This document shows, piece after piece, positions 5,502 to 36,866 of a stretch of 57,093 bases of DNA. Each line of letters starts with the position of its first letter. Positions within the stretch are counted from its first letter, which is position 1. A model generated the notes under the pieces. That model saw only the letters and a program-made list of their open reading frames with translations. It ran no database searches and had not been told where the DNA came from. Position numbers and translations under genes: made by a program. Source of the stretch: a virus (taxonomy: Duplodnaviria > Caudoviricetes); the IMG/VR virus record IMGVR_UViG_3300030397_000312, positions 1-57,093 of that record. The stretch is one strand, 5' to 3'.

Positions 5502-6093
5502 TCTTTCTCCTCATTCTTTCATGCTGTGCTGCGTAGTCGGTGCGATAATAAAGAATGTGCGAAGCTGAGTAAATCAACTCCCCCATAGAATCATCCCACT
5601 TAATTTCCTTCTCCTCTATACTGCCATCATTTCCAAGTCTTACTAATAATGCACGAGGAATTTCGGCTGCAATCATATATCCATGCATTTGCAAATCATA
5701 GACAGGGTAGAAATCTTGACCCGTCTTCCAATCTATAATACATGGACCTATATCATCCTGTACGATACAATCAATAGTACCAACATAGGGATTCTTTATG
5801 GGCGCAACCATAGAACGCTCAATAAAATCTACCTTATAATTCTGCTTCTCCCACCAGTCTTGCCATGCAGTTAACTGCACAGTATATTCTGGAGGGATAA
5901 TCACCTCTTCGTTTTGCAGAAGCTTCGCGACGCATTCGTGCATCTCCGTCCCACGTCGGGCGGCGTCTTCTGCTCCGTAAAAGCTGCTTGGTTTGATTAC
6001 GTCTAGGACAGTATGTAACGCGGGATAGATAAAACCACGTTCGTCTTTATAGCTACGTAATGTTCGGTAGGTTGTTAACTTGTATGCCATCAA
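5488..6093 (-). CDS. PD-(D/E)XK exonuclease
   Basis: AARRGTEMH, YVGTIDC, IIDWKTG, LQMHGY. Confidence 0.85.
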   Translation of the reverse strand: MMAYKLTTYRTLRSYKDERGFIYPALHTVLDVIKPSSFYGAEDAARRGTEMHECVAKLLQNEEVIIPPEYTVQLTAWQDWWEKQNYKVDFIERSMVAPIKNPYVGTIDCIVQDDIGPCIIDWKTGQDFYPVYDLQMHGYMIAAEIPRALLVRLGNDGSIEEKEIKWDDSMGELIYSASHILYYRTDYAAQHERMRRKNGGK

Positions 6094-6556
6094 TCTTCTC
6101 CAATAGGTATCCTCTCCGCTGGCCGCTACATATTCTTCTCGCTTGAGCTTGGCTTATATCGTATAGCCTCGATAACTGTGCATATGTATAGCGTCCAGTT
6201 CTATATTTACAAATCATCTCTAAAGCTGATTGATCATTCAACTTTGGAGGAACCCCTCCAGCTCGTGCGTGTCTGCCACGCTCCACTGCGTCAATACAAT
6301 TATCCCTCTGGGTTCCTAATAATAAATGCTTTGGATTACAGCATGATCTATTATCACACGAATGTCTTACCACTGTACCATGATATCCTTCGCTTTGAGG
6401 AATTTCCCCGTAAGATAATTCATAAGCCACTCGATGAACACTAACAGATTTACCCGCAATCCTAATCTTACCATAACCACCCGAATTACAGAAACCCTGC
6501 CACTCCCAACATTCATCTTCAGTAGCTTGATTCACCTTATCCCAGAAGCGTTTCAT
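6053..6556 (-). CDS. HNH homing endonuclease
   Basis: RFWDKV..CWEW..GYG..HRVAY..HSCDNRSCCNPKHLLLGTQRDN. Confidence 0.9.
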   Translation of the reverse strand: MKRFWDKVNQATEDECWEWQGFCNSGGYGKIRIAGKSVSVHRVAYELSYGEIPQSEGYHGTVVRHSCDNRSCCNPKHLLLGTQRDNCIDAVERGRHARAGGVPPKLNDQSALEMICKYRTGRYTYAQLSRLYDISQAQARRICSGQRRGYLLEKIDGIQVNNLPNIT

Positions 6557-25590: not shown

Positions 25591-27336
25591 TTATGAATTC
25601 TCTAATACGTCAATCCGCGCTTCTAAGTCTTCAATCGTCTGATTGAGTTCCTGGATAGCCTTGACAAGTAAAGCTGTCATGTGACGATACTTCACACCAC
25701 CCAATTCCCCATTCGCATATGTCGCTAATATTGGATTGATAGACTCCACTTCTTCAGCAATAAAACCAAGGTCTCGCTGTCCACCCTGATCTTCTGTCCA
25801 TGTATATTCAACTGGTCGTAATTCCATCAGCGTGTCCAGCCCTAACGGTAAGTCTTCTACATCTTCTTTGAATTTCGACAATGAGGTACAACTTGTCAGA
25901 TAGCTAATGCCCGAATTATCCCAACAGACCGTGGCTGAATTTGCGGTGGCAAATTTACCAACTTGCACATCTCCATCAGCTTCAAGTAATAAAGCTGTTG
26001 TTGTTGCGGAAAAGTCCGCATCTGCAACTGTGCTATCATTAAACATAAATACGACATTATCACTGCCATTTCCATGTACCATGCCAAACCCCTGGAATCC
26101 GGCATTAGAATTCTTCAGCGTATTCGCCGTAGCGGAATGAATAGCATGTAATGCAAAAAATGGTGCACCATTACCAGAATAATGACCCCATGCACTGGTG
26201 TAATCTGCGTTCGTATGTTCCGTCATGAAACTATTTCGTCCATCTTCAGAAAGAACACCTATGTCAGTATTAGCTGCGGTGGCTTGGATAATATGCAATC
26301 GTGCTTCAGGACTATCCGTATTGATACCAATATCTCCATCACCTTTCACGCGGAAAAAGTCCGTAACGCCGGACTGATCCTTAACAAGGAGCGCGGCATC
26401 AGAGCTGTTCGTTCCAGCAGTAATACGTACCCCAAAACTTTCACCTGAGTCTGTATCTTGCGATTCGACACGAACCACGTATTGATTATCAATCGCCGTT
26501 GCAATATCCAAGACCGCATCTGGAGTCGTATCGCCAATACCAATCACACCGCTTTGCAAGATACGCAGCGCTTCTGAATCTGCACCAGTTGCAAGGGCCA
26601 GATCAGCGGAAGATTTTTGCGTGCCGACTGTCAATAAGTCAGCATCATGATTCCAATATATCGCAGCTCCTAGACTATCACTTGGTGAACCAAACCCAAT
26701 ACTTGCATTATTTGCATCAGGTGTTAACACTGTAATACCGCCTGCTGCATTTTGCTCTACCACTAAGTCGTCGAAATTGGCTGCTGCTGTCACTGACCCA
26801 GCACTATTCGTTAAGGCGTGCAATGTGCCATCTGGCTCGACGTTAATACCCACGCGACGAGAAGCACCAACAAGCCGAAGAATAGAAGTCTCACTCCCGC
26901 CATCCATAACATAGAATTCCATGTCTGCATCTTCTGATCCGTCCGTGACTGTGGTCAGATTCACTTCAATACGTGCTTGTCGCTGCGAACCACCGGCATC
27001 TTCAACTTTAATTCCTAACGATCCACCAATACCAGCCTGCGGCGTCCCTGAAGTGGTCTTCTCAATATCAAGTACAACAGTATTGCTGCTATTATTAGCA
27101 TCATCGACCGTTGGTGCAGATGTGTCATCAGTCCCATATCCTAATTGCCCATTCGCACCAACACACTCAACAACCTCTCCGACCGTACATGTTCCGCCTT
27201 TTGTCGCGCCACCATCAATATCAAGAATATTGATTGGATCGTCGGCACTCTTACTATGAGTCAAAGAGTGATCAGCCGCGTGGACTGGTGCAGCTATTAA
27301 AAACGCCGCTAACAATGTTGCTACTATTTTCTTCAT
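25591..27336 (-). CDS. tail fibre with C-terminal peptidase S74 intramolecular chaperone and N-terminal signal-peptide-like sequence
   Basis: Repeats of the GxIGIxTxxPxAxLHI type; S..KFKEDV...LRPVEYTW...GFIAEEVE...VKY..LLVKAIQEL; start MKKIVATLLAAFLIAAPVHA. Confidence 0.85.
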   Translation of the reverse strand: MKKIVATLLAAFLIAAPVHAADHSLTHSKSADDPINILDIDGGATKGGTCTVGEVVECVGANGQLGYGTDDTSAPTVDDANNSSNTVVLDIEKTTSGTPQAGIGGSLGIKVEDAGGSQRQARIEVNLTTVTDGSEDADMEFYVMDGGSETSILRLVGASRRVGINVEPDGTLHALTNSAGSVTAAANFDDLVVEQNAAGGITVLTPDANNASIGFGSPSDSLGAAIYWNHDADLLTVGTQKSSADLALATGADSEALRILQSGVIGIGDTTPDAVLDIATAIDNQYVVRVESQDTDSGESFGVRITAGTNSSDAALLVKDQSGVTDFFRVKGDGDIGINTDSPEARLHIIQATAANTDIGVLSEDGRNSFMTEHTNADYTSAWGHYSGNGAPFFALHAIHSATANTLKNSNAGFQGFGMVHGNGSDNVVFMFNDSTVADADFSATTTALLLEADGDVQVGKFATANSATVCWDNSGISYLTSCTSLSKFKEDVEDLPLGLDTLMELRPVEYTWTEDQGGQRDLGFIAEEVESINPILATYANGELGGVKYRHMTALLVKAIQELNQTIEDLEARIDVLENS

Positions 27337-27345
27337 GTTATCCTC

Positions 27346-28956
27346 TTAATTATCATCTGCGTCAATGTCAACTTGAATACTATCTCGTTTCCACGCGAGC
27401 GGACCACGATACTTTACGTCAAGCGCAAGTTCATAGAATTCCCCATCATGACCAGTCGCAGGAAAGATCACATCACATGACATGAAGTGTCCCCAATTTG
27501 CATTACTCGTAATTGGAGCAATAACATCTTGAATCTGAAAACTTCCTTTCGTTTCTCCTAATGCAACAAAATCCGCATATGAACTCTCATTATTATCATA
27601 GAGTAAGCCGAGTGAGAGTGCCGACTTCCCGCGATAAATAGCTTTTGCACGATAGGCGCGGCCATACGAATCAGCTTCCCCAATACGAACAAAGGGCACT
27701 TGGATACGAGTATCAATATCCGTCTCTGTTCCGTTATCATCGTCTTTTTCAGGATTACTATTCGCGAAGTCGATCTCACGAATATCCCCTGTCGTATCGC
27801 CGATATACATCGCGCCACCATTCGTATCATCCTCTGCGGGACTATCCGCAATAGCATTGAATGGTAGCCCTGTCCAACGTGCCCAAAGGAATCGCGGCCC
27901 ATCTTGCGTTAACACACGCGAGACAACATATGTGGTATCCGCATCAGAAGGATCAAGTTGAATGATGTACATATCTTTTCGCGTGAAGTAGCATCCGACT
28001 GCACTCGTATAGAGATTCTGTCCACCAGGAGTCACAAATAAGCTACTAATCGGTAATGATAAATCCTGCGACTGCGGGCTTTGCCCATCAGTAATACGCA
28101 ATCCATTACGGCTCAAGTATACGACGCCCCACGGAGTCAACTTAATGGTCTCTGGAGCGATACATCCCTCCGTATTATATCGGACGAACTGCCCGGATGT
28201 GGTGGACCCGAACTCAATATCGCCTAAGAAGCGCCAAATACCAGAAGTTTTAAAAACCAGTAAAGCGTCTCCAATTCCCACAAGGCCAACAATGTCGCCA
28301 CCATCAGGGTCATTGGCAGATAGCTGGTTAAGAGAAGGAAAATTACTATCGGAATTAACGTCCGAAGCATAGACTGAGAAGTTAACATTATCATCATCTA
28401 CTACCCACATCCGCGACTTCCAAACTTCTATATAGGGGCCAATATCATCATTACTCGCGAAGACGCTAGTACTATCTTGCGTAATCGCAGTAATATTACT
28501 CCCGTCGTAGAACTTAATGCCCTCTTTCCCGTTGACCATATAGGTCTTATTTTTCGCGGGCCAGTTCACAAAATGCCAGCGCGTATTCGCAAGATAGCCC
28601 GTTGGACTCCCGCCAAGCGCATCATCAAAAACACCATCCGCATCATTATCGTGGACGAAATCCACATTTCCAGAGGAACTGTTCTGAATCACTGCGAGCC
28701 AGGAAGGACTATTACTCCCCGTATCTCTTGGATAATGTCGCCAGAGTCCTAAGATACTCGATGCATTCGTTGGCTTATCGAGATAACGTATACCTCTCCG
28801 TCCGCGTAATTTGATGGTTTCCCCACCAGACACGTATTCAATATTCTGGGCTTTGAGTAAGGCATTCTCAGGCGTGTAGATATTCAGCGCCCGCGAATCC
28901 CAAAGTCCCCCAGAGAAGTCGTTAAATCTTACAGTTGGGATAAACAATGCCTCCAT
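27346..28956 (-). CDS. tail nozzle / tail tubular protein B (P22 gp10-like)
   Basis: NDFSGGL start, beta-propeller-like pattern, GCIAPETI motif, size and position. Confidence 0.7.
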   Translation of the reverse strand: MEALFIPTVRFNDFSGGLWDSRALNIYTPENALLKAQNIEYVSGGETIKLRGRRGIRYLDKPTNASSILGLWRHYPRDTGSNSPSWLAVIQNSSSGNVDFVHDNDADGVFDDALGGSPTGYLANTRWHFVNWPAKNKTYMVNGKEGIKFYDGSNITAITQDSTSVFASNDDIGPYIEVWKSRMWVVDDDNVNFSVYASDVNSDSNFPSLNQLSANDPDGGDIVGLVGIGDALLVFKTSGIWRFLGDIEFGSTTSGQFVRYNTEGCIAPETIKLTPWGVVYLSRNGLRITDGQSPQSQDLSLPISSLFVTPGGQNLYTSAVGCYFTRKDMYIIQLDPSDADTTYVVSRVLTQDGPRFLWARWTGLPFNAIADSPAEDDTNGGAMYIGDTTGDIREIDFANSNPEKDDDNGTETDIDTRIQVPFVRIGEADSYGRAYRAKAIYRGKSALSLGLLYDNNESSYADFVALGETKGSFQIQDVIAPITSNANWGHFMSCDVIFPATGHDGEFYELALDVKYRGPLAWKRDSIQVDIDADDN

Positions 28957-29418
28957 CGTTTATTATTCACCACACCGGCTATCAACTGATGGCTCACTTT
29001 ATACTTAGTCGCAAGCTTCCTATGTGATGTTAAGCCTTCATTATATTCTTTGCGAATCTCTTTCACATCATTATCTGATAATTTTGCCCTGTTATTTTTC
29101 TCTCCATAAGTGTGTCTTTTTTTTAACAACTTTATCTTCCGTGTTATCTCTATTGGAACCTAAAAATAGATGAGCCGGATTAACACAGTGCCCTATATCA
29201 CACTTATGTAACACATGAAGCCCTTTCGGTATTCGACCTCGATGCAATGTAAATGACAGGCGATGAGCACATATGACCTTACCGTCTCTATTAAGAACGC
29301 CATATCCATGATTACCAAGAGCGGCATCCCATAACCAACAACCATCATCTTGACGTTTAACTTTAGATCAAAAAACGTCCAAGATTGGTTTCTTCTTATA
29401 TTTACGTACAGTTGGCAT
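28929..29418 (-). pseudogene. degenerate HNH endonuclease
   Basis: MPTVRK...VF*SKV..GCWLW..AHRLSF..HKCD..CVNPAHLFLG; TGA at the conserved Trp and an extra A in an A8 run near 29120. Confidence 0.8.
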
Positions 29419-29831
29419 TAGTACCCCGATTGTGCGCTACGTTTCGCCTTACCTTTTAATCTGTCTTTCGTCCCTAATCGTTCGGCTATGCGCCGCTGCT
29501 GAGCAGCTTTAAAATCAGGCTTCACGCCAGTGCGTAGTTGAGGTAAATCTCCAGGCTTTAATCTTCGCGTCGCCTTAAGTAATTCTGGAAAATCTTTCGA
29601 CGCATTCCCAGGCATTTCATGCGTGATTGATCCAGTACCCTTACGAGTGACCTTCGGGCGTGGATTTTTCACCGTATCTTTCGCTTCACTCTTGACCGTC
29701 TTTCGTGCGCCTTTTTTAGCCGCTTTCTTCGCACTCTTCTTGGCGGATTTCTTTCCTAGATGTTTAATTAACTTCTTTAGTCCTACTTTGGCCGCAGCTC
29801 CCGCTGCTCCCATTAGTGCTGGATGTGGCAT
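29418..29831 (-). CDS. Lys-rich histone-H1-like basic protein
   Basis: KKSAKKSAKKAAKKGARK repeats. Confidence 0.65.
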   Translation of the reverse strand: MPHPALMGAAGAAAKVGLKKLIKHLGKKSAKKSAKKAAKKGARKTVKSEAKDTVKNPRPKVTRKGTGSITHEMPGNASKDFPELLKATRRLKPGDLPQLRTGVKPDFKAAQQRRIAERLGTKDRLKGKAKRSAQSGY

Positions 29832-29849
29832 ATTTAACTCGGCAATCTA

Positions 29850-30308
29850 CTATACATGCGTCCAAACCTGACGATGTATAATTCTATTAATAGCCGCTGA
29901 TGTTACGTCATATTTACGTGCTAATTTGGCTTGAGATATATTCCCTTCATCGTATTGATGTCTAATATTGATAATTTGATCTTCATTGAATTTAGACGCA
30001 CCGTTACGGGAACCCCTTGGACCTTTTCCCCTAGCTCGTCCTTTATGAACCATATCCGTCATATTATCATAATGAGTACCTATAGTTAAGTGATCAGGAT
30101 TCACACATGATGGATTGTCGCAACGATGCATAACGTGCATCCCATCAGGGATATCCCCTATTAGATGCTGATATGAATACCTATGCGCTCTATAATTCAC
30201 TCCGTCAGCCTTGAATTTCCCATATCCGCGACTAAGATTTCCCATCCATCTCCAGCAACCTTTGCCGTTAGTATCTATACAAATAAAATTCCAGAAATTA
30301 TCTTTCAT
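29850..30308 (-). CDS. HNH homing endonuclease
   Basis: CWRW..GYG..AHRYSY..HRCDNPSCVNPDHLTIGTHYDN. Confidence 0.9.
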   Translation of the reverse strand: MKDNFWNFICIDTNGKGCWRWMGNLSRGYGKFKADGVNYRAHRYSYQHLIGDIPDGMHVMHRCDNPSCVNPDHLTIGTHYDNMTDMVHKGRARGKGPRGSRNGASKFNEDQIINIRHQYDEGNISQAKLARKYDVTSAAINRIIHRQVWTHV

Positions 30309-30317
30309 AAATATTCT

Positions 30318-30959
30318 CTATGATGGTAATCTTGATCTTAATACCGCGCCCCAAGTCTGAACGAGTGTATCAAGGAATTCTGCGACAGCATTTGTAATTT
30401 GTTCGCGATCTCCCGCGTCTTCATCTGCTTCTTCTGTACTTTCACGCAGCATATTCGCCGCTGTCCGATACATGAGCATCGGATTTAAGTAAGTCATAAC
30501 CGGATCATCATCGTCTGGTCGGATAATACTAAAGACTGTTAAGCCTGAGCTTCCACTCCCTGCGGTATCTGGTGGTGGTACTACAGCGAAGTCAATGAGG
30601 AGGGTGCCAACAACCGAATCCAGACCTTCGGGAATATGGTCCGTAAACCAATATTCCGGCGTGCCGTCAGACTCGCTCTCCCAGGTACTTCGCACCCAAT
30701 CGAGAGTATCAGACGTGGCTTTTCGGAGCACGCCTTGGTTATATAGCACATCCAGGATACGATGTGTCTGTGCGTCCGGGGAATATATGCTCTGACTAAC
30801 GACCGTATCAATCGTCTCTTCCTGGGCAGTGAGGTCGAACTCACGTATGAGTTGGTCCAGTGCGCGTTTATATACTGTTTCAATCTCTTCATCGCGATTC
30901 GCATCCTTGATCCAGAGATAATCTTTGACTAAATCTTTAACATCAGTTGGTATCGGCAT
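30318..30959 (-). CDS. head-tail adaptor / tail ring protein
   Basis: Helical N-terminus, GTPEYW...VVPPPD motif shared with two paralogues. Confidence 0.6.
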   Translation of the reverse strand: MPIPTDVKDLVKDYLWIKDANRDEEIETVYKRALDQLIREFDLTAQEETIDTVVSQSIYSPDAQTHRILDVLYNQGVLRKATSDTLDWVRSTWESESDGTPEYWFTDHIPEGLDSVVGTLLIDFAVVPPPDTAGSGSSGLTVFSIIRPDDDDPVMTYLNPMLMYRTAANMLRESTEEADEDAGDREQITNAVAEFLDTLVQTWGAVLRSRLPS

Positions 30960-32350
30960 TAGTCATTCCCGCTTCTACGTTGATCTACAATCTTATGAGA
31001 TGCGACCTCTTTCTGTACTGGTCCTGGCATAAATCGTCGATCTCGCCGCAATCCTATCGCTTCCATAAACTGCTGCATGAGTCCCTGCACACGCTCGCTA
31101 ATCTTTCCTTCAGAGATGAGTGCGAGAGAGGCAGCATAGAGTGGCAGTAGGTTATGCCATACGGGGTCCACTGAGGGTGGCGCATATTTATCCGTCGCCC
31201 CATCTGGGACTTTCAAGCGTGTCACCTTAGCCGTAAAGCTCGCATTTGGCACGGGATAGAACCCCATTATTGTACCGCCAATCATATAATAGAACTCTGG
31301 CGTTCCAGTCGTTGAGTTCCAATTTGCATCGAGTGCTTGTAAATGTGCAATATGAGATTCTTGTAATGCGACATTATTAATCGCGACTCTGAGTGGCGCG
31401 ATAAAATCCGAGAATGTATTATGTATTTTATAGGTCGCCGTGCCACTCGTAATGGACAGATCGCCTGTTTCCTCTCCTAGTGCGCGATAGATGGTGACAA
31501 ATAATTCCGCTTGCTCTAGGAAGACACGCACTTGCGTCTCTGTATGGAAAAGTCCATCCTCATCATCAATTAATCGCTGCGTTCGCTCAATCAGCGTACT
31601 CCATGACTCTTCCTGTGCACCAAGCAAGTAGAAGTTAATATGATCTGATGCTATAGGATTCATTCCTAATGTAATCACATCGCCAGTATCATCTGAAATA
31701 TATTCTGTTGCTGCCGCGAGATAATCTGTCCGCTCATCAAAGAGCTGACCATTCAGTGTTGTGAGCAATCGCGGCTTATCTCCACTAATCTGCCCTGTCT
31801 TTGTTAAGGTATATGCAGCATTGGTGCCATCCTGCGAGCCAGTAAACGCGAGTGTTGCGGTATTCGTATCTGTTGGGACCGGCAAAAAAGCTTCAATACG
31901 ATCCGTCCGAAATGGCGCTGTCCAGAAGGATATACTATCCGTATCCGTGCCAGTTGTGTACGTTATTTCATTTGCACCTGGTCCAGATGCAACCTCTTCA
32001 CATGCGAGACCATTAAAGAAGATTAGTGCATTCGTACTACTTGGTTTTGCTTTAATCGTAAATGTCTGATTACTATTGTCGATATCGCCAGTCAGTTCTG
32101 TTCTCCGCAGCGACGTGAGAATATTGTCCTGCACAAACGCCCAGAATCCATCTCCTGAATTAGGCGCAAGGCCCACCTCTATAGCTGTTCCCGTAACGGT
32201 ACATTCCCCTACTCCTGGAGTACCTCCGACAACATCGAGGATAAGTCCATTATGAATAATGAGCACTAATCCACCTGTCGCTGGCGTTGTGTCCAACGTA
32301 AAGGAAGTAATTGCTCCATCTGGAGATTCTGAAAAACCAGCCTTAACCAT
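30959..32350 (-). CDS. tail ring protein with three N-terminal beta-sandwich repeats
   Basis: Three repeats G..DG.N..FT....NG; C-terminal adaptor domain GTPEFYY...GFYPVPN. Confidence 0.6.
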   Translation of the reverse strand: MVKAGFSESPDGAITSFTLDTTPATGGLVLIIHNGLILDVVGGTPGVGECTVTGTAIEVGLAPNSGDGFWAFVQDNILTSLRRTELTGDIDNSNQTFTIKAKPSSTNALIFFNGLACEEVASGPGANEITYTTGTDTDSISFWTAPFRTDRIEAFLPVPTDTNTATLAFTGSQDGTNAAYTLTKTGQISGDKPRLLTTLNGQLFDERTDYLAAATEYISDDTGDVITLGMNPIASDHINFYLLGAQEESWSTLIERTQRLIDDEDGLFHTETQVRVFLEQAELFVTIYRALGEETGDLSITSGTATYKIHNTFSDFIAPLRVAINNVALQESHIAHLQALDANWNSTTGTPEFYYMIGGTIMGFYPVPNASFTAKVTRLKVPDGATDKYAPPSVDPVWHNLLPLYAASLALISEGKISERVQGLMQQFMEAIGLRRDRRFMPGPVQKEVASHKIVDQRRSGND

Positions 32351-32535
32351 TATCTCAACCTGAAATCGCGACCCTTTTTCTTCTCTAATGCACGACGGAT
32401 ATTCCCTGACCCGCGGAGCTTTTCATTGCCTTCGTACTCGTGCGTACCCTTCTTGAATCGTTTCTTCTTCTTTGATTCTAGTCGTTTACCAAACTCTGGC
32501 GGAAATTTACTTTCTCTATCCTTTAATCGCCCCAT
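32350..32535 (-). CDS. small K/R-rich protein
   Basis: 61 aa, TAATG-coupled on both sides. Confidence 0.6.
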   Translation of the reverse strand: MGRLKDRESKFPPEFGKRLESKKKKRFKKGTHEYEGNEKLRGSGNIRRALEKKKGRDFRLR

Positions 32536-32975
32536 TACACACCTAACACTATATATCGGAACTCATATCGCTCATCTGCCGTTGGCGTTCCTGGGTTCGT
32601 TAACGTAATAACTAAGGTTGTTGCTGTCGTTGTCCATGTGCACGTAACTGCTTCAGTAGGGTCCGTAATATTATATCCAACAACAAGAGCAATTGGCGCG
32701 GAAGTAAATGTCCCATCGCCAAACGTGAGTGTCGCAGTTGGGTTTGCTCCCTGACTACCTCCGGTTGCATCAAGATTCATGGAGCCGATCTGATCATTTC
32801 CTGTCACCGCATTCACATGTCCGGTTGCGCCCCAATTTGCATGGAGTGCCCAATCACCAGCGACCGTGGCATTCCCCGTACAATGGAGTCGATATCCAGA
32901 GACTTTCGTGGTGCCTGCTAATTGTGCTACACTAAAAGGGCTTTCGCACTGATCTGCCCGTACTGGTCCTGCCAT
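32535..32975 (-). CDS. putative structural/fibre protein
   Basis: Thr/Gly-rich beta protein, LTFGDGTFTSAP...RYIVLG. Confidence 0.5.
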   Translation of the reverse strand: MAGPVRADQCESPFSVAQLAGTTKVSGYRLHCTGNATVAGDWALHANWGATGHVNAVTGNDQIGSMNLDATGGSQGANPTATLTFGDGTFTSAPIALVVGYNITDPTEAVTCTWTTTATTLVITLTNPGTPTADERYEFRYIVLGV

Positions 32976-33356
32976 TTAATACCCCCACCTATGTGGATAA
33001 TTTTGTGCGCCCATCATCTGCTGTACTGTCTGCTGCGGATAGCGTTGTCGCATATACTGTTGCATCGCCATGCGAATCTGATCTGTCATCATCTGATGTT
33101 GACTCTGGCCTGGCGGCTGCGCGGGTTGCGACTGTACCTGCTGGGGTGATGCGCCATTCATCTGCTTCTGCATTTGCTGCTGTGGCGTATTATGTTGTCC
33201 ATATTGCTGCGGATTCAGCATTGGATTCGCCTGTGCATTCTTATTATTCGGATTCGGGAACTGGTCCATATTATGCATCATCTTATTCGCATAACCCCAG
33301 CCTCGGAACGAGAAGGGATTCCGTGGAAACCCTTGCCCGAGAAAATCCTTCTCCAT
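32976..33356 (-). CDS. Gln/Met/Asn-rich low-complexity protein
   Basis: ORF; likely leaderless start MEKDF 7 nt after a -10 box (track start is 33368). Confidence 0.55.
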   Translation of the reverse strand: MEKDFLGQGFPRNPFSFRGWGYANKMMHNMDQFPNPNNKNAQANPMLNPQQYGQHNTPQQQMQKQMNGASPQQVQSQPAQPPGQSQHQMMTDQIRMAMQQYMRQRYPQQTVQQMMGAQNYPHRWGY

Positions 33357-33363
33357 CTTATTA

Positions 33364-33399
33364 ATCATAATATACCTTCACTATGCTAGTCAAGGAAAA
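33364..33399 (-). promoter_or_regulatory. conserved phage promoter
   Basis: TTTTCC-TTGACT-N18-TATGAT. Confidence 0.65.
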
Positions 33400-33412
33400 T
33401 TTACTATTCAAA

Positions 33413-34327
33413 CTATAAGTCCAAAAGCAAGTCGTGACGTGACGCAAAATCGTCACTAACTTCATTACCTCTTTCGCTGTTCCTCTGCGCATGGGGAGCA
33501 CCAAAGGCATTTATATCTCTCATTTGTAATTCTTGCAATGTCGCTATAGATTGCTGCTCCCATTTATCCGCTACCGAGAACCATTTCTGAGCATCTTGTG
33601 GGTCTTTCTCAGCTAAGGCAATGGACATCGCCGCCTGAGCTGCGGTAGATTTAATGAGTACAGTGACAATCATTTCCTCCAAGGTAGTGCTATTAGAAGT
33701 AAGAGCAAACGACAACATCTTCATTCCGACATAATTGAAATGATCCTGTGTATTCGGCACTGGCCACAATTCAATAATCCGTCCGCCACCACTCCCGAAC
33801 CCACTATACGAGTAATAGAGCGGGTCTCCTGAAGATTGCCGCGACTCATCTAAGTCTGCGAGGTCTTCATGGGTGACTTCAATAAGGTCTCGCCCACCTC
33901 CAGAGATGGATATAAGATACCAAACCGCCGGATCAAGCTCGTACCGAGCCTGGTTAAGTGTGTAAGTCTTGCTGGCACCCGTGGTCCCACCATAATTGTA
34001 CTTGAGTGTGCCAGTTGTCGTATTAGTGAATAAGTTAACCCGGTAAAAGTCCGAGTCAACCCGTAGGTATCCATCGTCATAATCACTCGTAAATGCAGTT
34101 GACGCACCCGCGATAGTCTTCGCTGCGTTTGTTAATGTTATCGTACCTCCAGAAAGCTCCGCAAAGGTGTTAAATTCGCCATCTAATTTGGCGAATGACC
34201 ATCCCCACGTATTCGCGAGTTCGCGGTACTGTGTCTCCAAGAGCGCACGAATAGCAGGCCCTTCGAGCTTATGGTGTACCATTGAAAGGATACGCCCTTC
34301 AATCTCTTTAACAGTCAGTCCCCCCAT
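33413..34327 (-). CDS. head-tail adaptor / tail tubular protein A-like
   Basis: WGWSFA, SGDPLYY...IELWPVPN; inserted GTITLTN..IAGASTAFTS domain. Confidence 0.65.
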   Translation of the reverse strand: MGGLTVKEIEGRILSMVHHKLEGPAIRALLETQYRELANTWGWSFAKLDGEFNTFAELSGGTITLTNAAKTIAGASTAFTSDYDDGYLRVDSDFYRVNLFTNTTTGTLKYNYGGTTGASKTYTLNQARYELDPAVWYLISISGGGRDLIEVTHEDLADLDESRQSSGDPLYYSYSGFGSGGGRIIELWPVPNTQDHFNYVGMKMLSFALTSNSTTLEEMIVTVLIKSTAAQAAMSIALAEKDPQDAQKWFSVADKWEQQSIATLQELQMRDINAFGAPHAQRNSERGNEVSDDFASRHDLLLDL

Positions 34328-35034
34328 TAGCTATCTTCCTTTCGTAAAATCCTTGACATACTATTAAACCTGTGATATAATATCCCCATATTATCAATCA
34401 AGGAGTTAGTATGGGAAAACTTATTGATAGAGTTGGGCAGCATTTCGGTCGTCTCGTAGTTTTGGAACGAGCGGCTAATAGAGGGAAAAAGACCGCCTGG
34501 ATATGCGAATGCACATGCGGCAACAAAACAACCGTCACTAGCACCAGCTTGGTAGCTGGGGATACTGCTAGTTGCGGGTGCCTTGCTCTCGATACGCGGA
34601 CTAAACATAACATGTCCCAATATCCTGAATATCGAGTATGGCTCGCCGCTAAGAGTCGTTGTTTCAATATTCGGGATAGATTCTATAGTCGATACGGTGG
34701 GCGCGGAATCACTATGGATAAAGATTGGGCTGCATCGTTTGAAATATTTATTCGAGATATAGGTAGACGGCCTTCGTCTCAACATTCTTTGGATAGGATT
34801 GATAACGACAGGGGCTACATGTCCGATAATTGTCGATGGGCAACACGTATTGAGCAGTCTCACAATACCTCCGCCAATCGCAATTTGACCCATAATAACA
34901 TCACCCTCCCATTGGAGGAATGGGCACGAAGAATTGGCATCACTGGTAATGCTCTGCGATGGCGCATTGGAGCCTGGGGACAGGACAAAGCCCTGAGTAC
35001 TCCTAAAGGGTAATTTAGCTGTCAGTCCTGCCAT
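34327..35034 (-). CDS. antisense bridging ORF across the HNH insertion (expression unproven)
   Basis: Starts MAGLTAK 3 nt after the upstream stop and ends TAATG on the ring-gene start. Confidence 0.35.
   Translation of the reverse strand: MAGLTAKLPFRSTQGFVLSPGSNAPSQSITSDANSSCPFLQWEGDVIMGQIAIGGGIVRLLNTCCPSTIIGHVAPVVINPIQRMLRRRPSTYISNKYFKRCSPIFIHSDSAPTVSTIESIPNIETTTLSGEPYSIFRILGHVMFSPRIESKAPATSSIPSYQAGASDGCFVAACAFAYPGGLFPSISRSFQNYETTEMLPNSINKFSHTNSLIDNMGILYHRFNSMSRILRKEDS
34353..34381 (+). promoter_or_regulatory. consensus sigma70 promoter for the inverted HNH gene
   Basis: TTGACA-N17-TATAAT followed by AAGGAG SD. Confidence 0.8.
34411..35013 (+). CDS. HNH-type homing endonuclease, inverted orientation
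   Basis: FGRLVV..WICECTCG..SCGC..RYGGRGI..SLDRIDNDRGYMSDNCRWAT. Confidence 0.9.
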   Translation: MGKLIDRVGQHFGRLVVLERAANRGKKTAWICECTCGNKTTVTSTSLVAGDTASCGCLALDTRTKHNMSQYPEYRVWLAAKSRCFNIRDRFYSRYGGRGITMDKDWAASFEIFIRDIGRRPSSQHSLDRIDNDRGYMSDNCRWATRIEQSHNTSANRNLTHNNITLPLEEWARRIGITGNALRWRIGAWGQDKALSTPKG

Positions 35035-35037
35035 AAT

Positions 35038-35346
35038 TTAATCCAGTTGTTCACTAATCAGCCAGCCGCCGACTGGTGGTACAATCACCTTTGCGGCACT
35101 CCATAGAACACCCGAAATCGTGGTCGGGTCACTTCCTTTACTCTCTATAATCACCGCTGGTGGCGGTAATGCTGGACATGGTTCTGGTTGCTTCACACAT
35201 TTCTGTAAGTATTTCGTTGCATATTTATTATAAAGTAATGCAGAATCTTCTATTGCCTCATTGCCACGCAATGCTTGCGACGTCGAACATCCACTCAATA
35301 TAATCATGAGGGTCGCGATTAAAATAATCTTAAGAGCCGTTATCAT
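35038..35346 (-). CDS. lipoprotein, o-spanin-like
   Basis: Lipobox LSG-C; Pro/Cys-rich segment. Confidence 0.6.
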   Translation of the reverse strand: MITALKIILIATLMIILSGCSTSQALRGNEAIEDSALLYNKYATKYLQKCVKQPEPCPALPPPAVIIESKGSDPTTISGVLWSAAKVIVPPVGGWLISEQLD

Positions 35347-35674
35347 ACCTATCCGCCTCTAGGCGATCTAACCGTTTCTCATTTTGTTCTACAATCGCTA
35401 ATACCCTACCGAGCTGCTGTTGAGACTTAAGAAATGTTTCATTCATTTTTTCAATACGCCTAAGTCCATCATTAAGTTTTGCCTTATCGCGAACGTATGG
35501 AGCTTGATGTTCTAGTTGCTCTGTAGTCACAAAATTCGCGGCTGCCTGTGTATATTCTAATCGTAAATCTTGAATATCTCCCTTAATATGAATAACGATT
35601 CCAAGATACATAGCCGCGCCCGTTAGTAGCGCTGTTGTAATTACAGGCAATAAGTGGTCTTTCCAATTTGTCAT
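35330..35674 (-). CDS. single-TM coiled-coil protein (i-spanin- or holin-like)
   Basis: N-terminal TM then heptads; overlaps the lipoprotein gene. Confidence 0.55.
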   Translation of the reverse strand: MTNWKDHLLPVITTALLTGAAMYLGIVIHIKGDIQDLRLEYTQAAANFVTTEQLEHQAPYVRDKAKLNDGLRRIEKMNETFLKSQQQLGRVLAIVEQNEKRLDRLEADRYDNGS

Positions 35675-35823
35675 TATCGTCTCCGAGGGCGAAAAATCGG
35701 CTTATACGTGGCTGTCACAGCGACATCGCCTGCACCAGCTTGACCCGAACTCCAGGTCCAAATCGTTCGCAACTGATAATGTTGAGGCTGGTAAATATTT
35801 CCATATGTCCATTGGACAATCAT
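35674..35823 (-). CDS. 49-aa protein ending FRPRRR
   Basis: Manual translation; TAATG-coupled on both sides. Confidence 0.6.
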   Translation of the reverse strand: MIVQWTYGNIYQPQHYQLRTIWTWSSGQAGAGDVAVTATYKPIFRPRRR

Positions 35824-36866
35824 TATGTACTCTGCGTATAAATCGTAATCAGGCGATCATCACTCGTTGCAGCAGTAAATCGTAACGTAACCACATCTGC
35901 ATTCATTTCTGTTGCGGTTAAATCTACTTTATACATACCATTTGCGATCTCTGATTCTGCGTTTGTTAATGCCGCGAATGCTCCACCATCTTTACTAATC
36001 GTGCCAGTAATCGTCTCGCCGGTCTGTGGAGTCACATGATCAGTGCTATTAACCATCAGGAAGCTGAAGTTACTGACCGCGACATTCTTCGTGAATTTGA
36101 CAGGAAGGTCTGCGATCAGCGCATCAACATTTGTATCAATCGTATCAATCTTTGTATCTAATCCGCTGATATCTGAAGTTAATTCTGCACGAGTGGGTGG
36201 ATCGTAGGCATTTAGTGCGTCCGTACATTCGCTCTGTACTTCAGCATCCCAGCTAGCGTTCCAAGGTATTGCAGTTAATCCCGCTCCGGCTGCACCAATT
36301 TCAGCCGTATCTAAGAGAATAGCATCAACAATGAGGTCTAATCGCCCACCATCAGCCCAATCGCCCTGGAGTTCATTGGTATCAGTCTCGATATCATTAA
36401 TATTTGTATTCATCGCATCGAGGTCTAATCCACCAGCATTACTAATGGGTAATCCACCAGCAGCATCAGCATTTGCATTCGGCAGTGCTGTGAGTCCCAT
36501 GCGTGTTGCATCTTCAGGATCAAAGTCTACTAATTGATATTCTTTATGAACGGGATGAAAACCTGCGGCTTTGACCGTACAGACTACTTGACTCACACCA
36601 GTGGCAAACGCAGCATCAGGCCAATCGACACGATATAACCCAGGTTGATCTGTACCGTCAACTTCAAACATCGTATTATCACTATGGGCACTATCTATTC
36701 CGGCAAGTGCAGTTGCATCTACCTTTGCAGATGGGGCAGCTCCGTTACGAACGTACTGCAAATCGAAGTCGGTGATTGTTGCGCCTGTCTCAGGCGTACC
36801 ATCAGAAGAATCTTGCACAAAAACATAATCGGTAATATTCGTACTACCCTTTTGAATGAGTCTCAT
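35823..36866 (-). CDS. putative fibre/appendage protein
   Basis: Similar Ig-like domains at both ends (PGLYRVD / NGMYKVD) joined by IDTIDT-type coiled repeats. Confidence 0.55.
   Translation of the reverse strand: MRLIQKGSTNITDYVFVQDSSDGTPETGATITDFDLQYVRNGAAPSAKVDATALAGIDSAHSDNTMFEVDGTDQPGLYRVDWPDAAFATGVSQVVCTVKAAGFHPVHKEYQLVDFDPEDATRMGLTALPNANADAAGGLPISNAGGLDLDAMNTNINDIETDTNELQGDWADGGRLDLIVDAILLDTAEIGAAGAGLTAIPWNASWDAEVQSECTDALNAYDPPTRAELTSDISGLDTKIDTIDTNVDALIADLPVKFTKNVAVSNFSFLMVNSTDHVTPQTGETITGTISKDGGAFAALTNAESEIANGMYKVDLTATEMNADVVTLRFTAATSDDRLITIYTQST

What the first reader, a model, noticed from the sequence alone, without database searches (positions are those of the whole stretch)
28927..35034. 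Intron-less HNH elements that invade tail-gene termini and carry a recoded replacement of the terminus
Seen: three HNH genes are each flanked by a protein-level duplicate of the adjacent tail gene's end (MAGLTAK/MGGLTVK; SRLPS*/SRLPS*; MPTVR/IPTVR), while the DNA of the two copies differs. Known: free-standing phage homing endonucleases spread by cutting naive alleles, and fungal mitochondrial homing genes can displace a gene end and supply a duplicate. Inference: these elements insert inside essential ring and nozzle genes and repair them without splicing, and the recoded copy gives self-immunity. Three independent cases in about 6 kb point to a recurring strategy.
Basis: partly seen in the sequence, partly recalled or inferred. 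Interest (0 to 1): 0.85.

Follow-up and report, generated by a model that had tools for sequence, protein, structure and literature searches.

The report
Homing-endonuclease genes leaving orphaned tail-gene ends
Three selfish HNH nuclease genes sit at the very ends of tail genes of an uncultured aquatic phage, and each has left a short orphan copy of the gene end on its far side, which looks like a footprint of how such genes enter tightly packed operons.

Summary
Three HNH genes are each bracketed by two copies of the neighbouring tail gene's terminus: H1 34411-35013 on the + strand, H2 29850-30308, and the broken H3 28929-29418. One copy works; the other is an orphan still joined to the neighbouring gene's start/stop overlap.

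A metagenome relative, L005, lacks H2 and H3 and has a single terminus at both sites. Homologues of all three tail proteins have orphan-like or single termini. No intron RNA was found.

The SRLPS* pair shares 9 of 18 bases yet the same peptide. Drift of a duplicate almost never gives this (5 of 2,000,000 simulations), so the two copies are diverged alleles.

My best reading is one-sided homing from a diverged donor. The tail-gene end next to the nuclease gene was co-converted, and the recipient's own end was stranded beside a non-homologous neighbour. "Self-immunity by recoding" is untested and not needed.

By inspection, 6 of 80 unrelated HNH loci show the same architecture. My bulk scans show no clear enrichment over controls, so it recurs but is not common.

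I rate it a new variant of a known kind: phage free-standing homing endonucleases, and the terminus duplications known in fungal mitochondria.

The parts
35014..35034 (-). Orphan start of the 304-aa adaptor-like gene (MAGLTAK), 4 nt after the stop of the upstream 102-aa gene
   Evidence: Homologues start MA.LT.K.
34411..35013 (+). H1: intact 200-aa HNH endonuclease gene, antisense to the tail operon. Its stop codon abuts the orphan.
   Evidence: phrog_374, E 2.3e-60. 1165 phage records match by tblastn, with at most 44% identity among the 25 rows listed and one unlisted record in the 60-80% band.
34353..34381 (+). Perfect sigma-70 promoter (TTGACA, 17 nt, TATAAT, with TG), followed by AAGGAG and the H1 start
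   Evidence: It is the only exact match in the 57 kb window; 2 of 100 shuffles had one.
34327..35034 (-). 235-codon open frame that runs from the orphan ATG through the antisense of H1 to a TAA overlapping the working ATG
   Evidence: H1 has no TTA, CTA or TCA codon. 50 of 7689 200-codon windows of the window's genes are equally open.
33413..34327 (-). 304-aa adaptor-like tail gene. Its working start MGGLTVK (34327-34307) is preceded by AGGAAG.
   Evidence: PF24175 SU10_adaptor, E 4.8e-07
30318..30959 (-). 213-aa structural gene. Its working end SRLPS* is at 30335-30318.
   Evidence: Both homologues are 213 aa and end TRVPS and SRVPS.
29850..30308 (-). H2: intact 152-aa HNH_3 endonuclease gene, starting 9 nt after the 213-aa gene's stop
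   Evidence: PF13392, E 5.3e-11; phrog_6254, E 1.2e-31. Absent from L005.
29834..29851 (-). Orphan end SRLPS*, overlapping the H2 stop. Its TAA lies 2 nt before the start of the next gene.
29418..29831 (-). 137-aa lysine-rich gene between H2 and H3, with no detectable similarity to the L005 genes at this position
   Evidence: E 1.9-4.6
28929..29418 (-). H3: decayed HNH_3 gene. It starts at the orphan nozzle start MPTVR (29418-29404, TAATG overlap with the upstream stop). It carries a TGA at 29370-29368 in place of the W of 'FWSKV', and a frameshift in A8 at 29124-29117.
27346..28956 (-). 536-aa tail nozzle gene. Its present start MEALF (28956-28942) is encoded inside the H3 3' end and is followed by IPTVR (28941-27).
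   Evidence: Model pLDDT 83.9. Fold match to P22 gp10 (E 1e-18, TM 0.63/0.70), T7 gp12 and the SU10 nozzle.
6053..6556 (-). H4: fourth HNH_3 gene. It overlaps both neighbours and has no flanking terminus duplicate (internal negative case).

Best explanation
These are ordinary free-standing HNH homing endonuclease genes from two families. They entered a tightly packed tail operon by break repair that had homology on one side only.

Inferred sequence of events:
1. The nuclease cut an HNH-free allele within the first or last few codons of a conserved tail gene.
2. The end lying in the tail gene invaded a diverged donor phage that carried the HNH gene next to its own copy of that gene.
3. Repair synthesis copied the donor's gene terminus and the HNH gene.
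4. On the far side the neighbour was not homologous, so the new strand was joined illegitimately to the other broken end. That end still carried the recipient's own terminal codons.

Result: a working terminus of donor origin, then the HNH gene, then an orphan terminus of recipient origin still fused to the neighbour's start/stop overlap.

Shown: the architecture; the empty sites in a relative; the allelic (not drifted) nature of the case 2 pair; the non-homologous neighbour on the orphan side.

Inferred: the cut position; which copy is donor and which is recipient; the joining step.

Later history: H3 decayed, but the nozzle gene now takes its start codon from the H3 remnant, so the remnant cannot be lost cleanly.
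For: 1. L005 (74% identical nozzle protein) has no HNH gene and one terminus at both sites. The TAATG upstream-stop/start overlap is kept, exactly where the window's orphan MPTVR sits.

2. The orphans look native. They sit at the native junction with the neighbouring gene. Case 1's orphan has A at position 2, as do P0036 and 8 of 11 fetched homologues at their start; 2 more have an internal MA start and 1 starts MD. Case 3's orphan keeps ATG and a CGN arginine codon as in L005, while the working copy has ATC and AGA.

3. Case 2 has 9 of 18 nt different, including two TCA/AGT serine switches, yet the same peptide. 9 random substitutions keep SRLPS* in 5 of 2,000,000 trials. An untranslated orphan is not selected for its peptide, so both copies evolved as real gene ends in different genomes.

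4. Third-position identity between the window and L005 is 0.32-0.40. A donor as distant as the known relatives would give this degree of 'recoding'.

5. The orphans of H2 and H3 both face the lysine-rich segment, which has no detectable similarity between the window and L005. That is one-sided homology.

6. Genes here abut or overlap (gaps of -1 to 10 nt at most junctions), so there is no intergenic room for an insertion.

7. The same architecture occurs in L028, L056, L062 and L075 (N-terminal orphans of about 9 to 41 codons), L049 (C-terminal) and L037 (a duplicated 42-aa stretch, terminal or internal). Where I read the junction, the orphan is often still coupled to the neighbour by an ATGA or TGATG overlap. 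Synonymous-site differences are the rule; L028 has 5 of 6 codons differing only at the third position, which 5 of 500,000 simulations reproduce.

8. Established knowledge. Free-standing endonucleases cut in a conserved gene near their own gene and co-convert flanking DNA (review PMC2988022, passages read). Illegitimate recombination is thought necessary for moves to sites without homology (PMC3984707, passage read, citing Parker et al. 1999, which I could not open).
Against: - No donor and no close (>90% identical) HNH-free relative is available, so the assignment of donor and recipient copies is an inference.
- Site 1 has no empty-site DNA.
- Cases 1 and 3 are about 80% identical at DNA level, and their differences are not biased to synonymous sites (83286 of 200000 and 44069 of 200000 simulations do as well). 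They could equally be duplications of one sequence.
- There is no step in window-versus-L005 identity next to the HNH genes that would mark a conversion tract. One distant relative could hardly show one.
- Bulk scans of 80 HNH_3 loci show no clear excess of flank duplicates: HSP>=36 in 8 of 160 against 30 of 798; exact >=6 in 4 of 160 against 9 of 798; Smith-Waterman >=55 in 7 of 160 against 17 of 802; terminal peptide >=35 in 9 against 4 of 178. One scan ran slightly the other way.
- The six external cases were picked by eye, without a measured false-positive rate.
- No contig in the four runs bridges an empty site.
Confidence: 0.55

Rival explanations
1. Dedicated terminus-swapping cassette. 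The mobile unit is the HNH gene plus a substitute gene terminus. It homes into the coding end of the tail gene again and again, and the DNA-diverged substitute protects the occupied allele from re-cutting.
For: - It predicts the same architecture.
- H1 is a compact self-contained unit: promoter, ribosome-binding site, open reading frame and the new start with its own AGGAAG.
- In run X1 the unitig 28892-29460 (H3 plus 36 nt of the nozzle gene's 5' end and 42 nt of the upstream gene's 3' end) has depth 260, against 120 and 110 for its flanks. At both ends it also continues into unlike sequence in other contigs (depth 35 and 10.6). This hints that H3 together with short flanks sits in more than one context.
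- An organelle precedent exists: partial C-terminal duplications of cob and atp6 with endonuclease ORFs between or beside them (PMC6279837, passages read).
Against: - No second genome with the same HNH gene and the same pair of termini was found.
- Insertion already splits any target that spans the junction, so recoding is not needed for immunity.
- The degree of recoding equals ordinary divergence between relatives.
- Orphan length varies from 5 to about 41 codons between loci. That fits accidents of repair better than a designed unit.
- H4 and most of the 80 external loci have no duplicate.
Confidence: 0.25
2. Target-site duplication. A staggered cut or microhomology-mediated insertion duplicated 15-21 nt of one sequence, and the copies drifted apart afterwards.
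For: Cases 1 and 3 are direct repeats of 81% and 92% identity in the repeat finder, and their differences show no synonymous bias.
Against: - It is excluded for case 2 (5 of 2,000,000) and for L028 (5 of 500,000).
- There are no terminal inverted repeats at the borders.
- The three repeats differ in length, and the external orphans reach 29-41 codons at about 50% identity.
Confidence: 0.12
3. Chance resemblance of short peptides at HNH borders.
For: Case 3 alone is within chance for loose windows (460 of 4000). The bulk scans of external loci are not enriched.
Against: - Case 2 is matched in 1 of 4000 placements and case 1 in 17 of 20000.
- All three coincide with a gene's exact first or last codons and with an HNH border.
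- The empty sites in L005 and the homologue termini agree.
Confidence: 0.03

Closest known systems
Free-standing HNH homing endonucleases of phages (T4 mob genes; 'intronless homing')
   Same: These are HNH genes outside introns, variably present between relatives, placed beside conserved genes, overlapping or coupled to neighbours, and decaying after fixation. The host gene depends on signals embedded in the endonuclease gene, as with the T4 promoters inside seg and mob genes (PMC2988022, passages read).
   Different: That review has no occurrence of 'duplicat'. It describes insertion between genes or splitting of genes, not an orphaned copy of the neighbour's terminus beside a second, diverged working copy.
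Endonuclease-associated partial C-terminal duplications of fungal mitochondrial genes (cob, atp6)
   Same: A working gene end, endonuclease ORFs, and a displaced partial copy of the same end downstream (PMC6279837, passages read). The Allomyces atp6 case is recalled from memory; I did not see the paper.
   Different: Those are LAGLIDADG or GIY-YIG ORFs in organelles, with C-termini only and segments of about 300 nt. Here the nuclease is HNH, in a phage. Both N- and C-termini are involved, in stretches of 5-7 codons, and one element is antisense with its own promoter.
T4 mobA with the gene 60 bypass insert as a mobile cassette
   Same: An endonuclease travels with extra sequence that alters the host gene without splicing. 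I saw only search listings and the abstract of bioRxiv 10.1101/2022.08.31.505936. That the insert protects against cleavage is recalled from memory.
   Different: Here there is no translational bypass. The host gene is kept whole by a second copy of its terminus.
Gene splitting by endonuclease 'transposition' (Aeh1 nrdA/mobE, T4 gene 39/60, phage 25 gene 43)
   Same: An endonuclease gene lands inside a coding region of an essential gene (PMC2988022).
   Different: Those yield two polypeptides that reassemble. Here the protein stays in one piece and only an untranslated or mistranslated stub is left.
[quoted passage not shown]
   Same: It offers a mechanism for acquisition when only one flank is homologous. 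It is cited for this in PMC3984707 (passage read).
   Different: I could not open the paper. It concerns the td intron in engineered T4 crosses, not natural free-standing genes. Whether it reports flank duplications rests only on my memory.

Membership tests
Free-standing HNH homing endonuclease gene | Encodes an HNH nuclease domain | tested here: met
   H2: PF13392, E 5.3e-11, above the curated cut-off. H1: phrog_374, E 2.3e-60; Pfam gives only a sub-threshold CapR match. H3: two pieces, 45% and 33% identical to H2, broken.
Free-standing HNH homing endonuclease gene | Not inside a self-splicing intron or an intein | tested here: met
   No Rfam family at E<=1 in 28000-36000. H1 and H2 are separate ORFs with their own starts. 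H3 is fused only to 5 orphan codons.
Free-standing HNH homing endonuclease gene | Present or absent at the same site among related genomes | tested here: met
   L005 lacks H2 and H3 and has uninterrupted junctions. For H1 the result is inconclusive, because only homologue N-termini are available.
Free-standing HNH homing endonuclease gene | Site-specific cutting of the endonuclease-free allele, and biased inheritance in mixed infection | not testable with these tools
   Needs enzyme assays and crosses. No isolate is known.
Organelle-type terminus-displacing endonuclease element | The endonuclease ORF lies between a working gene end and a displaced partial copy of that end | tested here: met
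   Three cases in the window.
Organelle-type terminus-displacing endonuclease element | LAGLIDADG or GIY-YIG ORF, commonly continuous in frame with the upstream gene. This feature is recalled from memory; the paper I read names only the ORF types. | tested here: not met
   The nucleases are HNH. H2 starts 9 nt after the stop of the 213-aa gene, and H1 is on the other strand.
Transposon with target-site duplication | Near-identical direct repeats of fixed length, with terminal inverted repeats or a transposase | tested here: not met
   The repeats are 21, 18 and 15 nt long, with 17/21, 9/18 and 12/15 identity. No inverted repeats lie at the borders. No transposase is among the ORFs of the region.

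The most novel reading that the evidence does not exclude
The HNH gene together with a substitute gene terminus is a heritable mobile unit. It lets free-standing endonucleases colonise the coding ends of essential, translationally coupled virion genes without an intron or intein. The DNA-diverged substitute both blocks re-cutting and prevents repeat-mediated precise excision. Once the nuclease decays, the host gene stays dependent on the remnant, as the nozzle gene depends on H3 for its start codon. In the antisense case the cassette's opposite strand is kept open, so ribosomes starting at the orphaned start codon translate across it to the new start. Orphan length would then record the cut position of thousands of uncharacterised phage endonucleases.
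Probability: 0.25. Interest if true: 0.75.

Novelty: new variant of a known kind. Interest (0 to 1): 0.55.

Why it matters
Free-standing homing endonuclease genes are among the commonest accessory genes of phages. How they enter operons whose genes overlap by one base is seldom asked.

The orphan-plus-working-terminus architecture gives a readable footprint of single acquisition events. It shows which side had homology, roughly where the break was, and that the donor was a diverged phage. That could be mined across phage databases to predict target sites and to trace gene flow between phage lineages.

It also shows a ratchet. After the nuclease gene decays, an essential tail gene still needs the remnant for its start codon.

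For annotation, it explains short spurious ORFs and odd N-terminal extensions next to HNH genes.

In my searches and in the papers I read in part, this architecture is described for fungal mitochondria but not for phages. The library lacks most subscription journals, and supplements were closed, so an earlier description may exist.

Tried and rejected
Searches for close relatives that found little or nothing:
- Megablast of 27300-35400 against phages found nothing.
- tblastn of the nozzle protein against phages found nothing.
- Scans of viral contigs with the 304-aa protein, with H1 and with alignment A4 found nothing.
- H2 alone found one high-GC locus, L006, which was of no use.
- The metagenome scan gave one locus only, L005. 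L005 starts downstream of site 1.

Bulk tests of 'recurring strategy' on 80 HNH_3 loci (352 relatives, the best 80 kept):
- Flank HSP or exact-peptide scan against displaced controls.
- Terminal-peptide scan.
- Smith-Waterman flank scan.
- Terminal 40-mer against a reversed-sequence control.
None gave a clear excess. High-GC contigs, spurious ORFs and real tandem gene duplicates in the controls (L034, L051) add noise, and my scans missed several cases that I later saw by eye. L064 and L076 turned out to be a repeated terminator-like hairpin, not a gene end.

Co-conversion tract. Sliding identity of the window against L005 shows no step near the HNH genes.

TGA read as tryptophan in H3: rejected. 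TGA ends 3 of the 37 listed genes, and H3 also has a frameshift.

Antisense open frame across H1. It is suggestive only: P about 2e-4 from codon usage, but 50 of 7689 windows are equally open, and the antisense case L075 is not open.

Sequencing runs. The four runs come from one study, and three may be the source of this DNA. No contig joins across an HNH gene, and contigs cannot show that rare empty-site variants are absent.

Solved structures by sequence: nothing for the nozzle protein or for the 463-aa protein. The 304-aa protein weakly matches a distal tail protein.

Supplements of papers were not opened.

Full report
WHAT THE WINDOW IS

The window is a 57-kb linear IMG/VR virus record, estimated 74% complete. 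Almost all genes lie on the minus strand. It has no near relative among 50,697 phage records.

The finding lies in the tail module:
- The 463-aa and 304-aa proteins carry the SU10 adaptor domain.
- The 536-aa protein, modelled at pLDDT 83.9, has the fold of podovirus nozzle or tail-hub proteins. It matches P22 gp10 at E 1e-18 and TM 0.63/0.70, and also T7 gp12 and the SU10 nozzle.
- Genes in this module abut or overlap, typically as TAATG.

THE OBSERVATION

All three pairs exist.

Case 1. An orphan start ATG-GCA-GGA-CTG-ACA-GCT-AAA (35034-35014) lies 4 nt after the upstream gene's stop. It is followed at once by the complement of the H1 stop codon. The working start of the 304-aa gene (34327-34307) is 17/21 identical to it.

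Case 2. The 213-aa gene ends SRLPS* (30335-30318). H2 follows 9 nt later. A second SRLPS* (29851-29834) overlaps the H2 stop and ends 2 nt before the next gene's ATG. The two copies share only 9 of 18 nt.

Case 3. The stop of the 137-aa gene overlaps an ATG (29418) that opens MPTVR and runs in frame into H3. The nozzle gene now begins MEALF-IPTVR (28956-28927). MEALF is read from the 3' end of H3 in another frame.

- H1 is on the plus strand, with its own promoter.
- H3 is dead. It has a TGA where relatives have the W of 'FW.KV', plus a frameshift in an A8 run. TGA is a real stop here, ending 3 of 37 genes.
- A fourth HNH gene (6053-6556) has no duplicate.

IS IT MORE THAN CHANCE?

I placed windows at random in the same sequence with the same spacing.
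- Case 2: an exact shared peptide of 6 or more occurred in 1 of 4000 placements.
- Case 1: at least 17/21 nt occurred in 17 of 20000 (+-10 nt) and 13 of 4000 (+-45 nt).
- Case 3: this is not significant alone. At least 12/15 nt occurred in 140 of 20000 and in 460 of 4000.
- Looser BLOSUM scores are unimpressive. Case 2 scores 30, reached in 145 of 5000 placements; case 3 scores 24, reached in 1184 of 5000.

The stronger evidence is comparative.

RELATIVES

Nozzle gene. It has 31 homologues, of which I fetched 21. The two closest (74% and 73% identity) start MPTLRFNDF and MSVLRFNDF. None of the 21 starts MEALF.

213-aa gene. It has two homologues. Both are 213 aa, and they end TRVPS and SRVPS.

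304-aa gene. Its closest homologue starts MAELTLK. Of 11 further homologues fetched (out of 494 at E<=0.001), 8 start MA, 2 have an internal MA start after an extension, and 1 starts MD. The orphan MAGLTAK is therefore the family-typical form, while the working copy has G at position 2.

Metagenome contig L005. This 9127-nt contig carries the 146-, 464-, 213- and 530-aa homologues in the same order and has no HNH gene. The 213-aa gene ends once and is followed by the next gene. The nozzle gene starts once, at a TAATG overlap with the upstream stop. Site 1 is not covered by L005.

No Rfam family, and so no group I or II intron, is found at E<=1.

WHAT THE TWO COPIES ARE

In case 2, every one of the 9 differing bases is synonymous, and two serines are switched between TCA and AGT. 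If the orphan were a drifting duplicate, 9 random substitutions would keep the peptide in 5 of 2,000,000 trials. An orphan that is not translated as part of the gene cannot be held to that peptide by selection. Both copies must therefore have served as real gene ends in different genomes; they are alleles.

The window and L005 are only 0.32-0.40 identical at third codon positions. A donor as distant as the known relatives explains the 'recoding' with no further mechanism.

Cases 1 and 3 are about 80% identical, and their differences show no synonymous bias. They may be closer alleles or true duplications.

MECHANISM PROPOSED

The orphans of H2 and H3 both face the lysine-rich segment between the 213-aa gene and the nozzle gene. 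That segment is 414 nt in the window and about 2.3 kb (six small ORFs) in L005, with no detectable similarity between the two. The working copies face the conserved tail genes.

This is what one-sided homing would leave. A break falls in the terminal codons of the conserved gene. The end lying in the conserved gene invades a diverged donor that carries the HNH gene. Repair synthesis copies the donor's terminus and the HNH gene. The new strand is then joined illegitimately to the other end, which still holds the recipient's terminal codons and its coupling to the neighbour.

Two points of established knowledge fit this. Free-standing endonucleases cut in a nearby conserved gene and co-convert flanks (PMC2988022, passages). 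Illegitimate recombination is invoked for moves without homology (PMC3984707, passage, citing a 1999 paper I could not open).

The cut sites, the polarity and the joining step are inferences.

The structural part stands. Relative to the ancestral gene, each insertion lies inside the terminal codons, and a second terminus keeps the protein whole without splicing.

The functional part, self-immunity through recoding, is untested and not required, because insertion already splits any site that spans the junction. A dedicated cassette remains a live rival.

H1 is strikingly self-contained. Its promoter is the only perfect TTGACA-17-TATAAT in 57 kb (2 of 100 shuffles had one). It is followed by AAGGAG and the ORF, and the new AGGAAG for the tail gene lies on the other strand.

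In run X1 the unitig 28892-29460 (H3 with 36 and 42 nt of flank) has twice the depth of its surroundings. At both ends it also continues into unlike contigs. That hints at the same segment sitting in another context.

IS IT A RECURRING PATTERN?

Within the window, 3 of 4 HNH genes show it.

I then took 80 viral-contig loci with HNH_3 relatives of H2 (the best 80 of 352). Four automated scans gave no clear enrichment over displaced or reversed controls.

Inspection of the top hits nevertheless found six loci with the same architecture:
- L028: orphan MTTPMFPNT*, coupled by ATGA to the upstream stop. The working start is MTIQRPMFPNTF, and 5 of 6 shared codons differ only at the third position.
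- L056: an orphan of 29 codons that ends just before the HNH start.
- L062: an orphan of about 41 codons, fused in frame to the HNH ORF.
- L075: the HNH gene is antisense to the host genes, as with H1.
- L049: a methylase C-terminus. The orphan is still coupled by ATGA to the next gene.
- L037: a 42-residue duplicate.

These were chosen by eye, and I have no false-positive rate for that choice. The honest statement is that the architecture recurs in unrelated phages at a few per cent of loci. It is not a general property of HNH_3 genes.

COMPARISON WITH WHAT IS KNOWN

The elements pass the testable criteria for free-standing HNH homing endonuclease genes: domain, no intron, and presence or absence between relatives. 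Cleavage and biased inheritance cannot be tested here.

[quoted passage not shown] It differs in nuclease family, in host, and in that it involves only C-termini.

The T4 literature that I read in part describes overlaps, embedded promoters and split genes. The main review does not contain the word stem 'duplicat'. A 2025 survey of 268 lactococcal phage HNH genes and a 2023 study of ICP1 nucleases do not describe it either.

Nine full-text searches found no phage description. The library lacks most subscription journals, and supplements were closed.

VERDICT

The finding is a new variant of a known kind. Its value is moderate: a readable footprint of how homing endonuclease genes enter packed operons, and an example of an essential gene locked to a dead endonuclease remnant.

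Noticed in passing
window 34327-35034 (- strand): A 235-codon open frame starts at the orphaned ATG, runs through the whole antisense of H1 and ends in a TAA that overlaps the working ATG of the 304-aa gene. H1 uses no TTA, CTA or TCA codon. It may keep ribosomes on the operon mRNA across the antisense insert, or it may be chance (50 of 7689 comparable windows are equally open).
   Followed up: partly
window 34353-34381 (+ strand): The only perfect sigma-70 promoter in the 57 kb (TTGACA, 17 nt, TATAAT, with an extended -10 TG) drives H1 against the direction of the tail operon. This implies host-polymerase expression and head-on transcription.
   Followed up: partly
window 27521-27550 and 30105-30129 (run X3): A 55-nt unitig of depth 92 joins the 3' part of the nozzle gene to the HNH motif inside H2. 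The 2.6-kb segment between them has depth 227, against 168 and 145 for its flanks. This looks like a tandem duplication or a circle in part of the population, with one end inside an endonuclease gene.
   Followed up: no
window 28892-29460 (run X1): The H3 remnant with 36 and 42 nt of flank forms a unitig of depth 260, against 120 and 110 beside it. At both ends, other contigs (depth 35 and 10.6) continue with unlike sequence. The one readable continuation does not encode nozzle-like protein.
   Followed up: no
window 32350-32535 (- strand): A 61-aa lysine- and arginine-rich ORF sits between the 146-aa and 463-aa genes and is bounded on both sides by TAATGG. L005 has a single TAATGG there and no such ORF. 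This is a non-HNH insertion that also duplicates the coupling junction.
   Followed up: partly
L005 1878-2216: The relative has its own 112-aa ORF of unknown kind inserted between the 464-aa and 213-aa genes, where the window has a one-base overlap.
   Followed up: no
window 29418-29831 versus L005 2842-5112: The segment between the 213-aa gene and the nozzle gene is hypervariable. The window has one 137-aa lysine-rich protein. L005 has six small ORFs, three of which end in ...PRGKGYKPK. Both HNH orphans face this segment.
   Followed up: partly
window 35038-35346 (- strand): The gene upstream of the case 1 orphan encodes a 102-aa protein with a lipoprotein-like signal (…LSGCSTS), unusual inside a tail module.
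   Followed up: no
window 30959-32350 and 33413-34327 (- strand): Two paralogous proteins with the SU10 adaptor domain (463 and 304 aa) lie in one tail module. The precomputed Pfam entry for a homologue of the 213-aa protein names the same family.
   Followed up: no
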